64,000 bases of DNA, taken from the human T2T-CHM13v2.0 reference genome, Homo sapiens. The first letter of the stretch is position 1; each line of letters starts with the position of its first letter. Made by a program: the position numbers and the translations under genes. The stretch lies in assembly GCF_009914755.1 (NCBI RefSeq), contig NC_060933.1. One strand, 5' to 3'. Under the pieces are notes generated by a model. The model did no database searches. It worked only from the letters and a program-made list of their open reading frames with translations, and was not told where the DNA came from. Of this stretch, positions 1,636 to 59,350 are shown one piece after another.

Positions 1636-2140
1636 ACTGTTCCTGGGGCTGTGCTGCCCCCCTGTGGCTGCTGACAACTCCATGTCCAGCCCACTCAGCT
1701 GCTGGATCCCCAGGAGGGCCACCATGGATGTCTGGGGCCGAGGAGGCACACAGCCACCCGGGGCCAGGGAGCACCAAGGCCTGGGTAAGGGCAGAAGCCG
1801 CCAAGCCCCCGGTTTGCTCCACCCCTCAGTCCCCATCACAGTCTGGGCCAGGACTCAGAGCCCTGGGTTCCCCAACGAACCTGCCCCTCCAGGGAACCCA
1901 GGACCCCTTAGGACAGAGCTCCAGACCCCATCAAGGACTAAAGGAAGAAAATTAAGCACAAACAAGGTAGAAGAAATAATGAAAACACGAGTGGACAGAA
2001 ATGAAGTAAAAAGTGGACAAACAACAGAGAAAATCAAGGAAAGCAAGAGTGAGTGATTCGGAAAGATCCACAGAACCCACAGATTTCCAGCTGGACGAAT
2101 CAAAGGAAACAAAAAGAAGAAACCACAAATCAGCACTGTC

Positions 2141-4295
2141 AGAAAGGAGAGGAGGCGCCATCTCACCTCCCACAGACACCGACAGAGTGAGTGTCAGGAA
2201 GGAGAGGAGGTGTTGTCTCACCTCCCACAGACACCGACAGAGTGAACGTGTCAGGAAGGAGAGGAGGCGCCATCTCACCTCCCACAGACAGCAAGAGAGT
2301 GAACGTGTCAGGAAGGAGAGGAGGCGCCATCTCACCTCCCACAGACAGCGAGAGAGTGAACGTGTCAGGAAGGAGAGGAGGCACCATCTCACCTCCCACA
2401 GACACCGACAGAGTGAACGTGTCAGGAAGGAGAGGAGGCGCCGTCTCACCTCCCACAGACACCGAGAGAGTGAACGTTTAGGAACGAGAGAAGGCGCCAT
2501 CTCACCTCCCACAGACAGCGAGAAAGTGAACGTGTCAGGAAGGAGAGGAGGCGTCGTCTCACCTCCCACAGACACCAAGAGAGTGAACGTGTCAGGAAGG
2601 ACAGGAGGCGCCATCTCACCTCCCACAGACAGCGAGAGAGTGAACGTGTCAGGAAGGAGAGGAGGCACCATCTCACCTCCCACAGACACCGACAGAGTGA
2701 ACGTGTCAGGAAGGAGAGGAGGCACCGTCTCACCTCCCACAGACACCGAGAGAGTGAACGTTTAGGAACGAGAGAAGGCGCCATCTCACCTCCCACAGAC
2801 AGCGAGAGAGTGAACGTGTCAGGAAGGAGAGGAGGTGTCGTCTCACCTCCCACAGACGCCGACAGAGTGAAAGTGTCAGGAAGGAGAGGAGGCGCCGTCT
2901 CACCTCCCACAGACGCCGACAGAGTGAAAGTGTCAGGAAGGAGAGGAGGCGCCGTCTCACCTCCCACAGACACCGAGAGAGTGAACGTGTCAGGAAGGAG
3001 AGGAGGCGCCATCTCACCTCCCACAGACACCGAGAGAGTGAACGTGTCAGGAAGGAGAGGAGGTGTCGTCTCACCTCCCACAGACACCGAGAGAGTGAAC
3101 GTTTAGGAACGAGAGAAGGCGCCATCTCACCTCCCACAGACAGCGAGAAAGTGAACGTGTCAGGAAGGAGAGGAGGCGTCGTCTCACCTCCCACAGACAC
3201 CGAGAGAGTGAACGTGTCAGGAAGGACAGGAGGCGCCATCTCACCTCCCACAGACAGCGAGAGAGTGAACGTGTCAGGAAGGAGAGGAGGCACCATCTCA
3301 CCTCCCGCAGACACCGACAGAGTGAACATGTCAGGAAGGAGAGGAGGCGCCGTCTCACCTCCCACAGACACCGAGAGAGTGAACGTTTAGGAACGAGAGA
3401 AGGCGCCATCTCACCTCCCACAGACAGCGAGAGAGTGAACGTGTCAGGAAGGAGAGGAGGTGTCGTCTCACCTCCCACAGACGCCGACAGAGTGAAAGTG
3501 TCAGGAAGGAGAGGAGGCGCCGTCTCACCTCCCACAGACGCCGACAGAGTGAAAGTGTCAGGAAGGAGAGGAGGCGCCGTCTCACCTCCCACAGACACCG
3601 AGAGAGTGAACGTGTCAGGAAGGAGAGGAGGCGCCATCTCACCTCCCACAGACACCGAGAGAGTGAACGTGTCAGGAAGGAGAGGAGGTGTCGTCTCAAC
3701 TCCCACAGACACCGAGAGAGTGAACGTTTAGGAACGAGAGAAGGCGCCATCTCACCTCCCACAGACAGCGAGAAAGTGAACGTGTCAGGAAGGAGAGGAG
3801 GCGTCGTCTCACCTCCCACAGACACCGAGAGAGTGAACGTGTCAGGAAGGACAGGAGGCGCCATCTCACCTCCCACAGACAGCGAGAGAGTGAACGTGTC
3901 AGGAAGGAGAGGAGGCACCATCTCACCTCCCACAGACACCGACAGAGTGAACGTGTCAGGAAGGAGAGGAGGCGCCGTCTCACCTCCCACAGACACCGAG
4001 AGAGTGAACGTTTAGGAACGAGAGAAGGTGCCATCTCACCTCCCACAGACAGCGAGAGAGTGAACGTGTCAGGAAGGAGAGGAGGCGTCGTCTCACCTCC
4101 CACAGACGCCGACAGAGTGAAAGTGTCAGGAAGGAGAGGAGGCGCCATCTCACCTCCCACAGACAGCGAGAGAGTGAACGTGTCAGGAAGGAGAGGAGGC
4201 ATCGTCTCACCTCCCACAGACACCGACAGAGTGAAAGTGTCAGGAAGGAGAGGAGGCGCCATCTCACCTCCCACAGACAGCGAGACAGTGAACGT
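2141..4295. repeat. 57-bp minisatellite, about 38 units, with a 625-bp higher-order period
   Basis: Unit GAGTGAACGTGTCAGGAAGGAGAGGAGGCGCCATCTCACCTCCCACAGACAGCGAGA; a 56-bp variant recurs at spacings 284/341/284/341/284. Confidence 0.95.
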
Positions 4296-4690
4296 CTCAA
4301 GTTTATTAACAGCTTTATGACCACAAATTTCCCAACTTAGATGACATAGAAAAATTCCTTGAAAGACACCAATTGTTGGATCTGGCAGAAGAAGTTTCAT
4401 CACCAAAATGGCCCTAGATCTAGTAAAGAAATTCCATATACAACTAAAACCTTCCCACAAAGACAATTCCTGGCCCAGATGTCTTCCCTGGTGAATGCAA
4501 CCAAACATTTAGGGAACAAATAATATCCATTCTACACAGACTCTTCCCAGAAATACAAGTTTCGAGGCCACCATTACCACAAGCTCAAAACCAGAAGAGA
4601 TATCATGGGAAAAGGAAATTACAGGCCAACTTTCCTCATAGACATGGACACAAAATAGTTTCTAGAACACTTGCCTGAAAAGCAAATAGA

Positions 4691-9584: not shown

Positions 9585-13347
<3,763 letters not shown>

Positions 13348-20184: not shown

Positions 20185-24150
<3,966 letters not shown>

Positions 24151-39343: not shown

Positions 39344-42300
39344 GTGAGCCAAGCCCTAGCCTGGGAGTGCTGGGGTGGGGGGACCGGGAGCCCTCAGCAC
39401 CTCCTAGAGGCGGCCCTCAGCACCTGTCGGGGACTCCCTGGGGGCTCCTGCTGAGGGTCCTGCCCCGGCCACATGTTCCCATCATTCTTGGGTCCTGCTC
39501 TGGGACTCCTGGGCTGACCCCCTCTCCACCCCCGCAGCCGTAGGGTGTGTGCTGTCCGGGCTCACGGGGACCCTGTCTCCGAGTCGTTCGTGCAGCGTGT
39601 GTACCAGCCCTTCCTCACCACCTGCGACGGGCACCGGGCCTGCAGCACCTACCGGTGAGTGCCCCACCACACCGAGCTCACCCAGCCCCAGCCTCCCAAG
39701 TCGGCCACACATCAGCATGTCAGGGGCGAGGCGGGGGTGAATCCTGGGACCCAAGATGGGAAACTGAGGCCAGAGCCATGAGAGGGCTGCCTGAGATGGG
39801 CGACCCAGGGCGGCCGGAGCCAAGGGGTTCCACGATCACCTCCAGTGTCCTAATCCTTGCTCTTGCCCCGACACGTCTCAAAGGACCGCACCTCTAAGAG
39901 CATCCCCATGTTTAGAGGGGTCACCCATCCTGTCTGCACCCCTCCACTTCCGGGGGACTAACCCCTCCCTACCCTGGCATCCCTGGCTGCAAGTTCCCAT
40001 ATACACAGAATGGTGCCTGACTCCCCTGGTCCCACTCCACTGGGCACCCCCCTCCACATGACGGCCCCCAGTGGGCACAGATGAGACCCTGAAATGTCCT
40101 GTATGCCCACACAAGGGGCACACACCCCTAAGTCTCAGAGTCCTCCTTCCTGGGTGTGGGAGCTCCACCCCCTGCTGGGGGAGGGGCCTGGGAATTCAGA
40201 CTTCTGGAGGTTTAAGAAGGGCTCCGATGCCCAGGGCCCACACTCTGCCGTGACTCGCCGTAGGCCGGGCACACCCTCTCCTCTGGGCCTGGATGCCCCC
40301 ACAGTAGGAGACCAGATAGGTGGGGGCACACACAGGCCTGGCCACTGCCTCTGCTCCATGCGGAGTGTGGCTGGGCCTTCCTGCTGTGGCTTGAGTCCCG
40401 GCCAGCACCGGAAGGCCCAGGCAGGGAAACGGCTGTGCAGTGACCCCTCAGTGCCATCCCTTGAGGAGAAGACCCTTGGGGGCATGCTGGGGTGACCCTG
40501 TGCACTCTGAGAGGGGACTCTAGATGCCCAGCAGGTGACTAAGGGGGAGTAGGATGCCCCTCTGAGCTGTCCCACCCACCCCACAGAACCATCTATAGGA
40601 CCGCCTACCGCCGCAGCCCTGGGCTGGCCCCTGCCAGGCCTCGCTACGCGTGCTGCCCCGGCTGGAAGAGGACCAGCGGGCTTCCTGGGGCCTGTGGAGC
40701 AGGTGAGGGCTATGTCCCTCGGCGCCCGGTGTTAGGAGGGCGACTGTTCCCCAATCTTCCAGCAACGCTCCTGCTGCTTTTCTTGAACCCCGAGCAAAGC
40801 ACCACCTTGCCGCAGAGCACCCACTCCCTAGCAGCTGCCCCCACAGGGTGCTGGGGACCCAACTGAGCTGGTGACCAGCCTCCCCCGCCCACAGCAATAT
40901 GCCAGCCGCCATGCCGGAACGGAGGGAGCTGTGTCCAGCCTGGCCGCTGCCGCTGCCCTGCAGGATGGCGGGGTGACACTTGCCAGTCAGGTGAGGCTGG
41001 CTGTACCCTGGGGGGCCCTGGAAGGGTCCTGGGCACCTCCTTGCATGTCCTGGGGTTACTGCTGGCCCATGAGTGGGTGGTTGTGAAGGGAGCTGTGTGG
41101 GCAGGACCCCTCCCGCAGGCATGGCCGCCTGACACCCCGTTTCCTGCAGATGTGGATGAATGCAGTGCTAGGAGGGGCGGCTGTCCCCAGCGCTGCGTCA
41201 ACACCGCCGGCAGTTACTGGTGCCAGTGTTGGGAGGGGCACAGCCTGTCTGCAGACGGTACACTCTGTGTGCCCAAGGGAGGGCCCCCCAGGGTGGCCCC
41301 CAACCCGACAGGTAAACAGCCCTGGCTGTGCCTGGCCTGGGGAGGCGGGCAGGCAGTGGACATTGCCGTGTGGCTGTTAGGCATGGTGGGGGGCACTGGA
41401 ATCTGGGCGGAAGGCGGTGGGGACTCCCTCTCCAGGGAGGGAGGATGGGGAGGGAGGATAGGTGGGTTCCCGAGAACTGGGGGCAGGTTGCCCGGAGCCT
41501 CATATCAGCCAAGAAGGCAGAAGTGCCCCGTCCCGGGGTCCTGTCTGCATCCAGCGCAGCATTCTGGAAGACGCCACGCCTCCGCTGGCGACGGGACATT
41601 ATTACTTTTGGTACGCGCTGTGACACTTCAAACTCGTACCGTGAGTAATAATGCGCCGTCCACGGCACCGCATCGAAAGCGCCGCTGAGACCTCAGCCTT
41701 GACCTCCCTCAGCGTGGCCGGGACCCTGAGCCTCTGCGCAGAGCCACCCGCCCCGACGTACTTAGGCGGCATAGCCCTGAGACCTCTGGCCAGCGCCAGG
41801 CAGGCAGCGGGGGCGGCAGAGGCCTGGGCCTGAGTCTTCTGGCTCTGCCTCTCCCTGGGGACAGGAGGGAGCCTGGGGGTGTGGGTGGGGAGCCGGCCGG
41901 CCGTGACCCAGCGCCTGGCTCTGCCCGCAGGAGTGGACAGTGCAATGAAGGAAGAAGTGCAGAGGCTGCAGTCCAGGGTGGACCTGCTGGAGGAGGTGAG
42001 GCATTGGTGGGGGGGCGGGGGGCAGGCAGTCCAGGGTGGACCTGCTGGAGGAGGTGAGGTGTGGAGGGGCAGGCAGTCCAGGGTGAACCTGCTGGAGGAG
42101 GTGAGGCATCGGGGGGGTAGGCAGGCAGTCCAGGGTGGACCTGCTGGAGGAGGTGAGGCGTCGGGGGGGCAGGCAGTCCAGGGTGGACCTGCTGGAGGAG
42201 GTGAGGCGTCGGGGGGGCAGGCAGTCCAGGGTGGACCTGCTGGAGGAGATGAGGCGTCGGGGGGGGAGGCAGGCAGTCCAGGGTGGACCTGCTGGAGGAG

Positions 42301-43266
42301 GTGAGGCGTCGGCAGGGGGCAGGTCTTCACAACAGCAGAGGCCCAGGCCCGGGTACAGGCTCCGTAGTCTCCTGGGACATGGTCCCGACCCACGGATGGC
42401 TGGGGGTGGTCTGAAAAGGTCCTGGCCCTGGGGAGGTGGCTTCCTCGCTGCTGACTGCCGAGGGGGCCCTGGCCTGGATCCATGCTGGGCAGAAGCAGCT
42501 GGACACTGACCAGGACCCCCCAGGGCCGGAGGAACCAAGCTTGACAGCCCCCCAGACAATACACAGAGCCTGGACCCAGACGAGACCTCCCCACCCCCCC
42601 ATCTTTGTCCCCACCAGGACAAAGAGCTCTTGCCAGTCTTCCCACTGGCCAGTGGTCCAGCTGTCCCCCTAGTTCTCCTGCCAGGGACCCCAAGGCTGGG
42701 ACCACCCCGCCAGCCTGATGCCCCAGGCACCCACTCTGCGGCAAGCTTTTCTGCCACGGCAGCCCCCTCTAGTGGACACTTGGAGCCCTGCCGCGGAGGC
42801 GGGGGCTGGAGGCTTGTGGAGCCCTTCCCAGGGGTCCTCCCTAGACCCCGGTGGAGCAGAGAGGGCGGGGGCCGGCCCAGGGTCACTGCCCTTCTGCACC
42901 CACAGAAGCTGCAGCTGGTGCTGGCCCCACTGCACAGCCTGGCCTCGCAGGCACTGGAGCATGGGCTCCCGGACCCCGGCAGCCTCCTGGTGCACTCCTT
43001 CCAGCAGCTCGGCCGCATCGACTCCCTGAGCGAGCAGATTTCCTTCCTGGAGGAGCAGCTGGGGTCCTGTGAGTGCCCCCACCCTCCAGAGCCCTCCTCC
43101 CGGGTCTGGGCCCAGTGGGCCTAGAGGGGCTACCCAGGCTTGGGGGTCGGGGGCGACCAAAGGCCAAGGGGCCAGTCAGATCTAGCTGGGCGGGGAGGCT
43201 GTGGGGAGCAGTGATCTCTGACCTTCGCCTCATCCAACCCTAGGCTCCTGCAAGAAAGACTCGTGA
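39264..43266 (+). CDS. EGFL7: EGF-like domain multiple 7 (VE-statin), spliced CDS join(39264..39343,39538..39654,40587..40702,40895..40990,41150..41311,41931..41995,42906..43068,43244..43266), 822 nt = 273 aa
   Basis: Exons join at GT-AG sites into one frame MRGSQEVLLMWLLVLAVGGTEHAYRPG...CSCKKDS*: signal peptide, EMI domain, EGF, Ca-binding EGF and C-terminal coiled coil. Exon lengths 80+117+116+96+162+65+163+23 = 822. Confidence 0.98.
39538..39654 (+). CDS. EGFL7: EGFL7 coding exon 2 (EMI domain, N-terminal part)
   Basis: cgcag|CCGTAGG...TACCG|gtgagt; RRVCAVRAHGDPVSESFVQRVYQPFLTTCDGHRACSTY. Confidence 0.96.
40587..40702 (+). CDS. EGFL7: EGFL7 coding exon 3 (EMI domain, C-terminal part)
   Basis: cacag|AACC...GGAGCAG|gtgag; TIYRTAYRRSPGLAPARPRYACCPGWKRTSGLPGACGA. 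Confidence 0.96.
40895..40990 (+). CDS. EGFL7: EGFL7 coding exon 4 (EGF-like domain 1, contains RGD)
   Basis: acag|CAATATGC...CAGTCAG|gtgag; ICQPPCRNGGSCVQPGRCRCPAGWRGDTCQS. Confidence 0.96.
41150..41311 (+). CDS. EGFL7: EGFL7 coding exon 5 (calcium-binding EGF domain)
   Basis: ctgcag|ATGTGGATGAATGC...CCGACAG|gtaaac; DVDECSARRGGCPQRCVNTAGSYWCQC. Confidence 0.96.
41583..41667 (+). ncRNA. MIR126: pre-miR-126 hairpin (5p 41597-41617 CATTATTACTTTTGGTACGCG; 3p 41634-41655 TCGTACCGTGAGTAATAATGCG), intronic in EGFL7
   Basis: Exact recognised mature sequences; the arms are complementary; apical UGUG at 41619 and CNNC (CATC) 16 nt after the 3p end. Confidence 0.98.
41931..41995 (+). CDS. EGFL7: EGFL7 coding exon 6 (start of coiled coil)
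   Basis: cgcag|GAGTGGAC...GAGGAG|gtgag; VDSAMKEEVQRLQSRVDLLEE. Confidence 0.95.
41968..42310 (+). repeat. 47-58-bp G-rich tandem repeat built from the EGFL7 exon 3' end plus splice donor (original plus 6 copies)
   Basis: Unit core GCAGTCCAGGGTGGACCTGCTGGAGGAG|GTGAGG; exon-like ends at 41995, 42053, 42100, 42152, 42200, 42248 (GT>AT), 42300. Confidence 0.95.
42906..43068 (+). CDS. EGFL7: EGFL7 coding exon 7
   Basis: cacag|AAGCTGCAG...GGGTCCT|gtgagt; KLQLVLAPLHSLASQALEHGLPDPGSLLVHSFQQLGRIDSLSEQISFLEEQLGS. Confidence 0.96.
43244..43266 (+). CDS. EGFL7: EGFL7 last coding exon; 3' UTR continues to about 43660
   Basis: cctag|GCTCCTGCAAGAAAGACTCGTGA; (C)SCKKDS*. Confidence 0.95.
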
Positions 43267-43640
43267 CTGCCCAGCGCCCCAGGCTGGACTGAGCCCCTCA
43301 CGCCGCCCTGCAGCCCCCATGCCCCTGCCCAACATGCTGGGGGTCCAGAAGCCACCTCGGGGTGACTGAGCGGAAGGCCAGGCAGGGCCTTCCTCCTCTT
43401 CCTCCTCCCCTTCCTCGGGAGGCTCCCCAGACCCTGGCATGGGATGGGCTGGGATCTTCTCTGTGAATCCACCCCTGGCTACCCCCACCCTGGCTACCCC
43501 AACGGCATCCCAAGGCCAGGTGGGCCCTCAGCTGAGGGAAGGTACGAGCTCCCTGCTGGAGCCTGGGACCCATGGCACAGGCCAGGCAGCCCGGAGGCTG
43601 GGTGGGGCCTCAGTGGGGGCTGCTGCCTGACCCCCAGCAC

Positions 43641-44731: not shown

Positions 44732-59350
<14,619 letters not shown>

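What the first reader, a model, noticed from the sequence alone, without database searches (positions are those of the whole stretch)
41968..42310. Intronic tandem array made of copies of an EGFL7 exon end plus its 5' splice site: five spare donors, all predicted to escape NMD
Seen: the last ~28 nt of coding exon 6 and its donor (GAGGAG|GTGAGG) are repeated six times into the intron, separated by G-runs. Intact donors end at 42053 (+58), 42100 (+105), 42152 (+157), 42200 (+205) and 42300 (+305); the copy at 42248 is inactivated (GT>AT). The coding frame stays open through the array to 42304. Computed by hand: the +105 donor inserts 35 aa in frame (VRHWWGGGGQAVQGGPAGGGEVWRGRQSRVNLLEE) into the coiled coil. 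The +58/+157/+205 donors shift into a frame that is open across exon 7 and stops in the last exon (TGA 43290-43292). The +305 donor stops at 43027-43029, 39 nt before the last junction. Established: stops in the last exon or within ~50 nt of the last junction usually escape NMD, and G-runs downstream of donors bind hnRNP F/H. Inference: a splice-donor 'dial' in which repeat number and G-run slippage set which C-terminal EGFL7 isoforms can exist. It sits 300 bp from pre-miR-126, so it might also affect Microprocessor/splicing kinetics.
Basis: partly seen in the sequence, partly recalled or inferred. Interest (0 to 1): 0.85.

Follow-up and report, generated by a model that had tools for sequence, protein, structure and literature searches.

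The report
Repeated splice donors after an EGFL7 exon
A short stretch covering the end of one EGFL7 exon and its splice signal has been copied six more times into the following intron; this is a real but already known kind of repeat, in which the cell normally uses only the first signal.

Summary
A 48-bp minisatellite (TRF 42017-42323, 6.2 copies, score 482) starts inside EGFL7 coding exon 6. It reiterates the last 28 exon bases plus GTGAGG six times: five intact copies and one GT>AT copy.

The interpretation as a splice-donor "dial" is not supported.
- 15 of 15 RefSeq EGFL7 transcripts use only the first donor.
- 0 of 17 named primate EGFL7 protein clusters carry array-encoded peptide.
- The NMD-escape pattern is unremarkable: 22% of composition-matched shuffles of exon 7 show it.

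The structure belongs to a described class, minisatellites whose first monomer spans an exon-intron boundary: F7 IVS7, CBS IVS13, IFI6, LMNB2, PDGF (PMC1557585). In F7, identical downstream pseudo-sites are functional but silent because the most upstream site wins.

A capuchin read-through isoform shows a single donor followed directly by the human post-array flank. This suggests the array arose after the split from New World monkeys.

I found no paper describing the EGFL7 array. Verdict: a new member of a known kind, most likely silent, and a latent reserve of cryptic donors. Usage and length polymorphism could not be tested here.

The parts
41931..41995 (+). EGFL7 coding exon 6 (65 nt), whose last 28 nt and donor seed the array
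   Evidence: RefSeq rows: all 15 EGFL7 transcripts carry this exon joined to 42906. It is the sixth coding exon of the NM_016215.5 CDS, which translates to 273 aa.
41947..41957 (+). Purine-rich run GAAGGAAGAAG inside the exon, upstream of the duplicated part. It is a possible exonic enhancer that only the authentic donor has immediately upstream.
   Evidence: Read from the sequence. The enhancer role is inference from recalled knowledge of GAR-type enhancers and was not tested.
41968..42025 (+). Unit 0 (58 nt): 28 exon nt, the authentic donor GAG|GTGAGG (exon end 41995), then the largest G cluster (G7 at 42009-42015, G6 at 42017-42022)
42026..42072 (+). Unit 1 (47 nt), intact pseudo-donor with exon-side end at 42053 (+58). 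Use gives a frameshift, a 301-aa product and a stop at 43290-43292.
42073..42124 (+). Unit 2 (52 nt), intact pseudo-donor at 42100 (+105, in frame, 35-aa insert, 308 aa). It carries one G>A change in the exon-derived part (GGTGAACC).
42125..42172 (+). Unit 3 (48 nt), intact pseudo-donor at 42152 (+157). It is 100% identical to unit 4.
42173..42220 (+). Unit 4 (48 nt), intact pseudo-donor at 42200 (+205)
42221..42272 (+). Unit 5 (52 nt), dead copy with GAGGAG|ATGAGG at 42248 (+253)
42273..42323 (+). Unit 6, the last copy, with an intact pseudo-donor at 42300 (+305). It runs into the unique intron flank (..GGGGGCAG|GTCTTCAC..). The read-through frame stops at 42302-42304.
42906..43068 (+). Coding exon 7, the single acceptor all donors would join. 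Its second off-frame is open across the exon, and its first off-frame stops at 43027-43029.
43244..43292 (+). Start of the last exon, with the normal stop at 43264-43266 and the frameshift stop at 43290-43292
41583..41667 (+). Pre-miR-126, in the preceding intron (41312-41930), 301 nt upstream of the array start
   Evidence: RefSeq rows

Best explanation
This is a GC-rich, G-skewed minisatellite whose first monomer straddles the exon-intron boundary.

Origin (inferred): a segment of about 48 bp (28 nt of exon, the donor GTGAGG, and a G-rich spacer) was duplicated in tandem. The likely route is slippage between a GCAG at the exon side (GCAGTCC) and a GCAG in the intron (GCAGGTC). The duplicate then expanded by unequal exchange.

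Result (shown): six identical 12-mer donors, GAGGAG|GTGAGG, face one acceptor at 42906.

How it most likely behaves (inferred by analogy): like the F7 IVS7 minisatellite. The splicing machinery defines the 65-nt exon from its 3' splice site and takes the first donor it meets, at 41995. The five intact downstream copies are functional in principle but silent. The whole array is removed as part of the 910-nt intron.

Role of the G-runs (inferred from recalled hnRNP H/F literature): they would act as intronic enhancers for the donor upstream of them. They would act as silencers if included in an extended exon. Both effects favour the first site.

Net effect: neutral in normal cells. The array is a latent reserve. 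If the authentic donor were lost, the next copy (+58) would be expected to take over and give a frameshifted, NMD-immune protein, possibly with some exon skipping.
For: Array anatomy and significance.

Usage:
- All 15 of 15 RefSeq EGFL7 transcripts use 41995 joined to 42906.
- Of 17 named primate EGFL7 protein clusters, 15 have the canonical LLEE|KLQ junction, 2 are intron read-through and 0 are array-spliced.

What does not distinguish the first donor:
- The donor 12-mers are identical.
- Predicted accessibility does not favour it. Mean P(unpaired) is 0.35 at 41995 against 0.45-0.55 at the other copies. Position is therefore the only distinguishing feature.

Precedent, PMC1557585 (abstract, introduction, first results section and discussion read):
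- In F7 only the most upstream of five to nine identical sites is used.
- Sequential inactivation activates the next one downstream, with increasing exon skipping.
- The result does not depend on cell type.
- LMNB2 and PDGF arrays also use only the authentic site.

Same assembly, same architecture: F7 has 37 bp x 6.1 copies with six exact 9-mers at 37-nt spacing. IFI6 has 12 bp x 24.8 copies. CBS has 31 bp x 17.8 copies.

No sign of selection on the repeats:
- Spacer differences are CpG transitions and G-run length changes.
- The exon-plus-donor part has 2 substitutions in 204 nt.
- Units 3 and 4 are identical, as expected of a young, drifting minisatellite.

Context: the window holds at least four other minisatellites and lies 1.71 Mb from the chromosome end.
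Against: - No RNA reads could be examined, so silence of the pseudo-sites is inferred from annotation and analogy, not measured.
- Annotation pipelines drop minor isoforms and handle repeat-derived junctions poorly.
- In 2 of the 5 published precedents (IFI6, CBS) the first two pseudo-sites are used constitutively (PMC1557585 introduction).
- The protein database is clustered at 90% identity and I saw only named sources. 12 candidates and 7581 candidates were left out unseen.
- The scanning model itself is one group's interpretation. Other work that I recall but did not read here (Eperon, Krainer, Roca) reports a preference for the intron-proximal site among strong duplicated donors.
- The G-run contribution is inferred only.
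Confidence: 0.72

Rival explanations
1. The reiterated donors are used at appreciable, possibly tissue-specific levels. Copy number and G-run length, if polymorphic, would decide which NMD-immune C-terminal EGFL7 isoforms a person can make.
For: - The five intact copies have the same 12-mer as the authentic site and are predicted to be no less accessible.
- All products are predicted to escape NMD.
- IFI6 and CBS use two pseudo-sites besides the authentic one (PMC1557585 introduction).
- The +105 product recreates the ..LLEE|KLQ.. junction in frame.
Against: - 0 of 15 RefSeq transcripts use these donors.
- 0 of 17 primate protein clusters contain array-encoded sequence, and there is no shorter fragment with array peptide.
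- NMD immunity means such mRNAs would not be hidden, yet none is annotated.
- In the cases where pseudo-sites are used the spacing is 12 or 31 nt. In F7 (37), PDGF (81) and LMNB2 (100) they are silent. In EGFL7 the first pseudo-site is 58 nt away.
- NMD escape of both off-frames occurs in 22% of shuffles.
- Polymorphism is unknown, because only one haplotype was seen.
Confidence: 0.12
2. The array acts at the level of transcription or RNA processing rather than through isoforms. A cluster of U1-binding sites and G-runs 300 nt downstream of pre-miR-126 would alter pausing, R-loop or G-quadruplex formation, splicing kinetics of the flanking introns, or Microprocessor access. That would tune miR-126 or EGFL7 output.
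For: - The sense strand of the array is 54% G and 17% C, with 10 CpGs.
- Many two-tetrad G-quadruplex-type motifs are present.
- The array is close to pre-miR-126.
- There is a precedent for a VNTR next to a pre-miRNA whose length correlates with splice variants that drop the miRNA: MIR137 (PMC6692358, abstract read).
Against: - There is no direct evidence of any kind.
- The array lies in the next intron, separated from the miRNA intron by an exon.
- No three-tetrad G-quadruplex motif with loops of 1-7 nt was found.
- A capuchin gene model apparently lacks the array, while miR-126 is, as I recall, conserved across vertebrates. The array is therefore not needed for miR-126 production.
Confidence: 0.08
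3. Assembly artefact or chance similarity.
For: None found.
Against: - TRF score is 482.
- There are 7 matches against 0.00 expected.
- The copies differ by specific substitutions and indels, including a GT>AT change. That is not what a simple assembly stutter gives.
Confidence: 0.01

Closest known systems
F7 (coagulation factor VII) IVS7 37-bp minisatellite (Borensztajn et al. 2006, PMC1557585)
   Same: The first monomer spans the exon-intron boundary and the authentic donor is followed by several sequence-identical pseudo-donors facing one acceptor. In this assembly F7 has 6.1 copies at 96% match, with six exact 9-mers. It lies near a chromosome end in GC-rich sequence. Only the most upstream site appears in annotated products.
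   Different: - The F7 monomer takes only 4 exon nt; the EGFL7 monomer takes 28.
- F7 units are uniform at 37 bp. EGFL7 units vary from 47 to 58 bp because of G-run slippage, so the frame changes from copy to copy.
- One EGFL7 copy carries a natural GT>AT knock-out.
- The F7 donor is TGG|GTGGGT and the EGFL7 donor is GAG|GTGAGG.
- F7 usage and polymorphism (5-9 copies) are shown experimentally. For EGFL7 neither was testable here.
IFI6 (6-16) intron 2 12-bp array and CBS IVS13 31-bp array (as summarised in the PMC1557585 introduction)
   Same: They are boundary-spanning minisatellites with reiterated donors. Both arrays are present in this assembly: 12 bp x 24.8 copies and 31 bp x 17.8 copies.
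   Different: In these two genes the first two pseudo-sites are used constitutively. Their spacing is shorter (12 and 31 nt, against 58 nt to the first EGFL7 pseudo-site).
LMNB2 100-bp and PDGF intron 4 81-bp boundary minisatellites (PMC1557585 introduction)
   Same: Donors are reiterated and only the authentic one is used.
   Different: They have longer units and more copies (10-18). I did not fetch or check these two loci.
MIR137 proximal VNTR (PMC6692358, abstract read)
   Same: It is a VNTR within a few hundred bases of a pre-miRNA in the same transcription unit. Human-lineage expansion is reported.
   Different: There the VNTR length correlates with splice variants that delete the miRNA. 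In EGFL7 the array is in the neighbouring intron, and no such variants are annotated.
ABCA7 intron 18 25-bp VNTR (PMC5954066, search listing and start of abstract only)
   Same: It is an intronic VNTR tied to altered splicing of the host gene.
   Different: As far as the listing shows, it is not described as reiterating the authentic donor. The effect reported there is length-dependent mis-splicing.

Membership tests
Boundary-spanning minisatellite with reiterated 5' splice sites (F7 IVS7 type) | Head-to-tail array of units of tens of bases | tested here: met
   TRF reports period 48, 6.2 copies, 89% matches and score 482.
Boundary-spanning minisatellite with reiterated 5' splice sites (F7 IVS7 type) | The first monomer contains the annotated exon-intron junction | tested here: met
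   Unit 0 spans 41968-42025 and the annotated exon end 41995 lies inside it.
Boundary-spanning minisatellite with reiterated 5' splice sites (F7 IVS7 type) | The donor sequence is repeated identically in downstream monomers | tested here: met
   There are 5 exact recurrences of the -6..+6 12-mer within 600 nt, and the sixth copy is GT>AT. Of the 23 annotated donors in the window, only this 1 recurs.
Boundary-spanning minisatellite with reiterated 5' splice sites (F7 IVS7 type) | Only the most upstream site is used physiologically | tested here: inconclusive
   15 of 15 RefSeq transcripts and 15 of 17 primate protein clusters use the first site, and none uses an array site. No RNA reads were available.
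Boundary-spanning minisatellite with reiterated 5' splice sites (F7 IVS7 type) | Pseudo-sites become active when upstream sites are inactivated | not testable with these tools
   This needs a minigene or a natural donor mutation.
VNTR (variable number) | Copy number differs among individuals | not testable with these tools
   One haplotype only. Reads and other assemblies are off, and supplements of VNTR catalogues are closed.
   None is present in RefSeq or in named protein sources. There was no direct RNA evidence either way.
NMD-escaping premature stops (50-55 nt rule, recalled) | The stop lies in the last exon, or no more than about 50-55 nt upstream of the last junction | tested here: met
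   The stops are at 43290-43292 (last exon) and 43027-43029 (39 nt before the junction), and +105 is in frame. However, 22% of shuffled exons do the same.
G-run intronic splicing enhancers bound by hnRNP H/F (recalled) | Runs of 3 or more G within some tens of nt downstream of a donor | tested here: met
   G4 to G8 runs lie 9-20 nt after every donor. The authentic donor has G7 plus G6. Protein binding and effect were not testable.
miRNA-proximal VNTR affecting miRNA output (MIR137 type) | VNTR length correlates with splice variants or the level of the miRNA | not testable with these tools
   Only the distance (about 300 nt, in a different intron) could be established.

The most novel reading that the evidence does not exclude
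The EGFL7 array arose after the split from New World monkeys and is length-variable. Its spare donors are used at low but real levels in endothelial cells. Because every product escapes NMD, people with different array alleles would then secrete different sets of C-terminally altered EGFL7. One would have a 35-aa glycine-rich insert in the heptad-repeat helix. The others would replace the last 60 residues with an Ala/Gly/Pro-rich tail of about 70 residues. This would be a natural, directly readable model of choice among identical 5' splice sites, with a built-in GT>AT control copy.
Probability: 0.1. Interest if true: 0.6.

Novelty: new member of a known kind. Interest (0 to 1): 0.3.

Why it matters
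EGFL7 is an endothelial matrix protein, has been a drug target, and hosts miR-126. An undescribed reserve of five cryptic donors directly after a coding exon has three practical consequences.

- Variant interpretation. By analogy with F7, a mutation of the authentic donor would probably shift splicing to +58 rather than abolish it. The result would be a stable frameshifted protein.
- RNA-seq and variant calling. Reads in this exon end are repeat-derived and prone to mis-mapping.
- Splicing research. This is a second natural test bed for choice among identical 5' splice sites. Usage is not masked by NMD, spacers vary, and one copy is naturally dead.

If the array is silent, as I expect, it is an ordinary subtelomeric minisatellite that happens to sit on a splice junction.

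Tried and rejected
RNA structure masking of the pseudo-sites was rejected. In a 541-nt fold the authentic 9-mer is, if anything, less accessible (0.35) than the copies (0.45-0.55).

Canonical G-quadruplexes: there is no three-tetrad motif with loops of 1-7 nt, only two-tetrad candidates.

Design for NMD escape was rejected as a signal. 48% of shuffles of exon 7 are NMD-immune in one given off-frame and 22% in both (20,000 shuffles).

Other genomic copies: none. All 4 matches are in the array.

Paralogue origin: EGFL8 has no comparable array. Its TRF rows are A-rich or Alu-like only.

A heptad count instead shows one register with 9 of 10 a/d positions V/L/I/M across the exon 6/7 junction.

Protein searches for array-encoded peptide:
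- One search gave 2 hits among 419 scored candidates, both matching only the exon part. 7581 candidates were left out unseen.
- One search gave 17 hits among 19 candidates. 12 were left out unseen.

Literature. All searches were of the held library only, and supplements are closed, so VNTR and sQTL catalogues may list this array without my seeing it.
- EGFL7+VNTR: 3 papers, none relevant by listing.
- EGFL7+tandem repeat: 50 papers, 25 listed, none relevant by title or abstract.
- EGFL7+minisatellite: 1 paper, an unrelated mouse study by listing.
- EGFL7+sQTL: 1 paper, unrelated.
- EGFL7+A5SS: 3 papers. Passages read in three papers concern expression level, exon skipping or an A3SS event.
- EGFL7 splicing terms. 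PMC6831462 concerns alternate promoters.
- EGFL7+intron retention: 17 papers. Passages in three of them do not concern the array.
- Hamanaka 2023 (PMC10078293) main text has 0 mentions of EGFL7.

Correction: my checkpoint note says 16 RefSeq transcripts. The recount is 15.

Full report
**What is there.** The sequence from 41968 to about 42323 is a tandem array that begins inside EGFL7 coding exon 6 (41931-41995).
- Tandem Repeats Finder gives period 48, 6.2 copies, 89% matches, 7% indels and score 482 for 42017-42323.
- Cutting the region at each GCAGTCCAGGGTG gives seven units of 58, 47, 52, 48 and 48 nt, then 52 nt, then a last unit that runs into unique intron.
- Each unit holds 28 nt identical to the exon end, the hexamer GTGAGG, and a spacer of 13-24 nt ending in a G-run and CAG.
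- The exon-side ends of the seven GAGGAG|GTGAGG copies are 41995 (the annotated donor), 42053, 42100, 42152, 42200, 42248 and 42300. The 42248 copy reads AT instead of GT.
- A 21-nt probe from the junction matches 7 times at up to 1 mismatch, against 0.00 expected and 0 of 100 shuffles with any match.
- The unit occurs nowhere else in the assembly as far as the genome search shows: 4 matches, all inside the array.
- Among the 23 annotated donors of the window, this is the only one whose 12-mer recurs in the next 600 nt.

I rebuilt the coding sequence from the RefSeq exons in a script and swapped in each alternative donor.
- The normal product is 273 aa.
- The +58, +157 and +205 donors shift to a frame that is open across exon 7 and stops at 43290-43292 in the last exon, giving 301, 334 and 350 aa.
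- The +305 donor stops at 43027-43029, with 39 nt left before the last junction.
- Unspliced read-through stops at 42302-42304.

Every number in the finding is right. The annotated pre-miR-126 (41583-41667) lies in the preceding intron, 301 nt upstream of the array.

**Is the NMD pattern special?** No. Exon 7 is 67% G+C. In 20,000 mononucleotide shuffles of it, one given off-frame was stop-free or stopped within 55 nt of the exon end in 48% of cases. Both off-frames did so in 22%. The array's own frame stays open only because the cumulative length offset does not reach 2 (mod 3) until the last copy. That is the one offset which puts the TGA of GGTGAGG in frame.

**Evidence on usage.**
- All 15 of 15 RefSeq EGFL7 transcripts (curated and model) end this exon at 41995 and join 42906.
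- A protein search used the read-through frame translated from window 41834-42301, scoring residues 34-156, with candidate lengths 86-273 aa. It found 2 proteins among 419 scored candidates, and both matched only the exon-encoded 19% of the query. 7581 candidates of unnamed source were not shown.
- A second search used the capuchin isoform P0001, residues 191-240, with candidate lengths 132-420 aa. It returned 17 primate EGFL7 clusters among 19 candidates, with 12 left out.
- Of those 17, 15 have the canonical ..LLEE|KLQ.. junction, 2 read through the intron, and none contains array-encoded sequence.
- Because the alternative products would not be degraded by NMD, their absence from annotation argues against substantial use.
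- This is still indirect. I could not look at RNA reads, and annotation pipelines under-report minor, repeat-derived junctions.

**Age.** The two read-through models are both from Sapajus apella (P0001, P0002).
- After ..VDLLEE they continue with 28 residues that begin with the donor (VR..).
- About 12 nt later they encode the sequence that in human follows the last array unit. The matches are collinear, in shifting frames, to window positions from about 42301 to 42385 (plus my own reading of the three frames).
- The capuchin model therefore has one donor and no array, which suggests expansion after the split from New World monkeys.
- Caveat: a short-read assembly can collapse a minisatellite.

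Within the human array:
- Units 3 and 4 are identical and the edge units are the most diverged, at 81-94%.
- Spacer differences are CpG transitions (CGTCG, CATCG, CATTG, TGTGG) and G-run length changes.
- The 34-nt exon-plus-donor part has 2 substitutions in 204 nt.
- This is what a young, methylated, slippage-prone minisatellite would show, and it needs no selection.
- The unit boundaries share GCAG (exon GCAGTCC, intron flank GCAGGTC). That is a plausible microhomology for the founding duplication; this step is inference.

**It is a known kind.** Borensztajn et al. 2006 (PMC1557585) is the key paper. I read the abstract, introduction, first results section and discussion.
- It lists F7 IVS7 (37 bp, 5-9 copies), IFI6/6-16 intron 2, CBS IVS13, LMNB2 and PDGF intron 4.
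- In F7, LMNB2 and PDGF only the authentic site is used. In IFI6 and CBS the first two pseudo-sites are used as well.
- With 50 minigene constructs the authors showed that the F7 pseudo-sites are functional.
- They showed that the most upstream functional site always wins.
- Inactivating sites one after another moves splicing to the next copy, with growing exon skipping.
- Pseudo-sites strengthened to a consensus value of 91 still do not compete.
- The outcome does not depend on cell type.

I confirmed the same architecture in this assembly (TRF; exact 9-mer counts):

| Gene | Unit | Copies | Match | Exact donor 9-mers |
|---|---|---|---|---|
| F7 | 37 bp | 6.1 | 96% | 6, evenly spaced at 37 nt |
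| IFI6 | 12 bp | 24.8 | 85% | 14 |
| CBS | 31 bp | 17.8 | 92% | 5 (the donor motif was my own reading of the repeat unit, not taken from the paper) |

In this assembly F7, CBS, PDGFA and LMNB2 lie within about 0.6-3.7 Mb of a chromosome end (PDGFA and LMNB2 by their start coordinates; IFI6, at chr1:27.5 Mb, does not), and EGFL7 lies 1.71 Mb from the end of chromosome 9. The window also holds other minisatellites: 57 bp x 38, 41 bp x 12, 31 bp x 5 and 41 bp x 3.

**How it most likely works.**
- Shown: six identical donors, one acceptor, and one annotated product.
- Shown: predicted accessibility does not favour the first site (0.35 against 0.45-0.55).
- Inferred: the first donor is chosen by position, through 5'-to-3' scanning or exon definition from the 3' splice site at 41930. 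A purine-rich stretch (41947-41957) that only the authentic exon has directly upstream may help.
- Inferred: the G-runs may also help. By recalled hnRNP H/F literature they enhance an upstream donor when intronic and silence when exonic.
- Read from the sequence: the authentic donor has the largest G cluster, G7 plus G6, 14-27 nt downstream.

The array would then be spliced out and be neutral, but it is a reserve of cryptic sites. I put this reading at 0.72.

**Rivals.**
It is kept alive by IFI6 and CBS.
- An effect on transcription, splicing kinetics or miR-126 processing: 0.08. The only precedent is the MIR137 VNTR (abstract read). The array is in a different intron and is apparently absent from a capuchin model.
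- Artefact: 0.01.

**Side points on the protein.** One heptad register places V/L/I/M at 9 of 10 a/d positions across the exon 6/7 junction. The +105 insert is glycine- and proline-rich and ends by repeating ..QSRVNLLEE. It would interrupt the helix and then restart the junction.

**Novelty.** I found no paper that mentions this array. The searches were made, with passages checked. Supplementary tables of VNTR and sQTL catalogues are closed and may list it. The class, the silence of pseudo-sites and the mechanism are in print. This is a new member of a known kind, of modest interest unless RNA data show use of the spare donors.

**Limits.**
- There were no RNA reads, no second human haplotype and no primate DNA.
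- Protein evidence comes from named sources only, clustered at 90% identity.
- The following are recalled and come from no call: the G-run and hnRNP H/F roles, the GAR enhancer role, the 50-55 nt NMD rule, and the conservation of miR-126 across vertebrates.

Noticed in passing
window 2137-4299; 12165-12323; 21080-21206; 46298-46790: There are other minisatellites in the window: 57 bp x 38 copies (score 3507), 31 bp x 5, 41 bp x 3, and a 41-bp x 12 array (97% match). The last lies inside the AGPAT2 intron between exons 45715-45787 and 47770-47865. The region is minisatellite-rich, as expected 1.7 Mb from a chromosome end.
   Followed up: partly
P0001, P0002 (Sapajus apella EGFL7 isoforms X3, X1): These gene models read through the array-bearing intron and terminate 28 residues after the donor. 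They give an indirect view of the capuchin intron: a single donor and no array.
   Followed up: yes
P0011 (Mandrillus leucophaeus EGFL7 isoform X3): This model reads through the donor of the last intron (..EEQLGSC then intron-encoded residues) instead of splicing to the final exon.
   Followed up: no
window 58361 (AGPAT2 first exon, minus strand): The donor of the first AGPAT2 intron is GC rather than GT (CATGAG|GCAAGG), which makes it a GC-AG intron.
   Followed up: no
G000 chr13:112.36 Mb (F7), chr7:0.6 Mb (PDGFA), chr19:2.4 Mb (LMNB2), chr21:41.4 Mb (CBS): Four of the five published genes with boundary-spanning minisatellites lie within about 0.6-3.7 Mb of a chromosome end in this assembly (PDGFA and LMNB2 by their start coordinates), as does EGFL7. 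IFI6, at chr1:27.5 Mb, is the exception. This suggests the class is a by-product of subtelomeric minisatellite density.
   Followed up: partly
window 41968-42323: The array is not listed among the masked_repeat rows of the chromosome annotation file, and the window file carries no soft-masking. Repeat-aware handling of this exon end may therefore be missing in standard pipelines.
   Followed up: no
EGFL7, exon not named: A WTAP-complex knock-down study reports a validated exon-skipping/inclusion change in EGFL7, in the context of GC-rich, G-quadruplex-prone splice sites (PMC8605363; abstract and one passage read). The main text does not say which exon is involved.
   Followed up: partly
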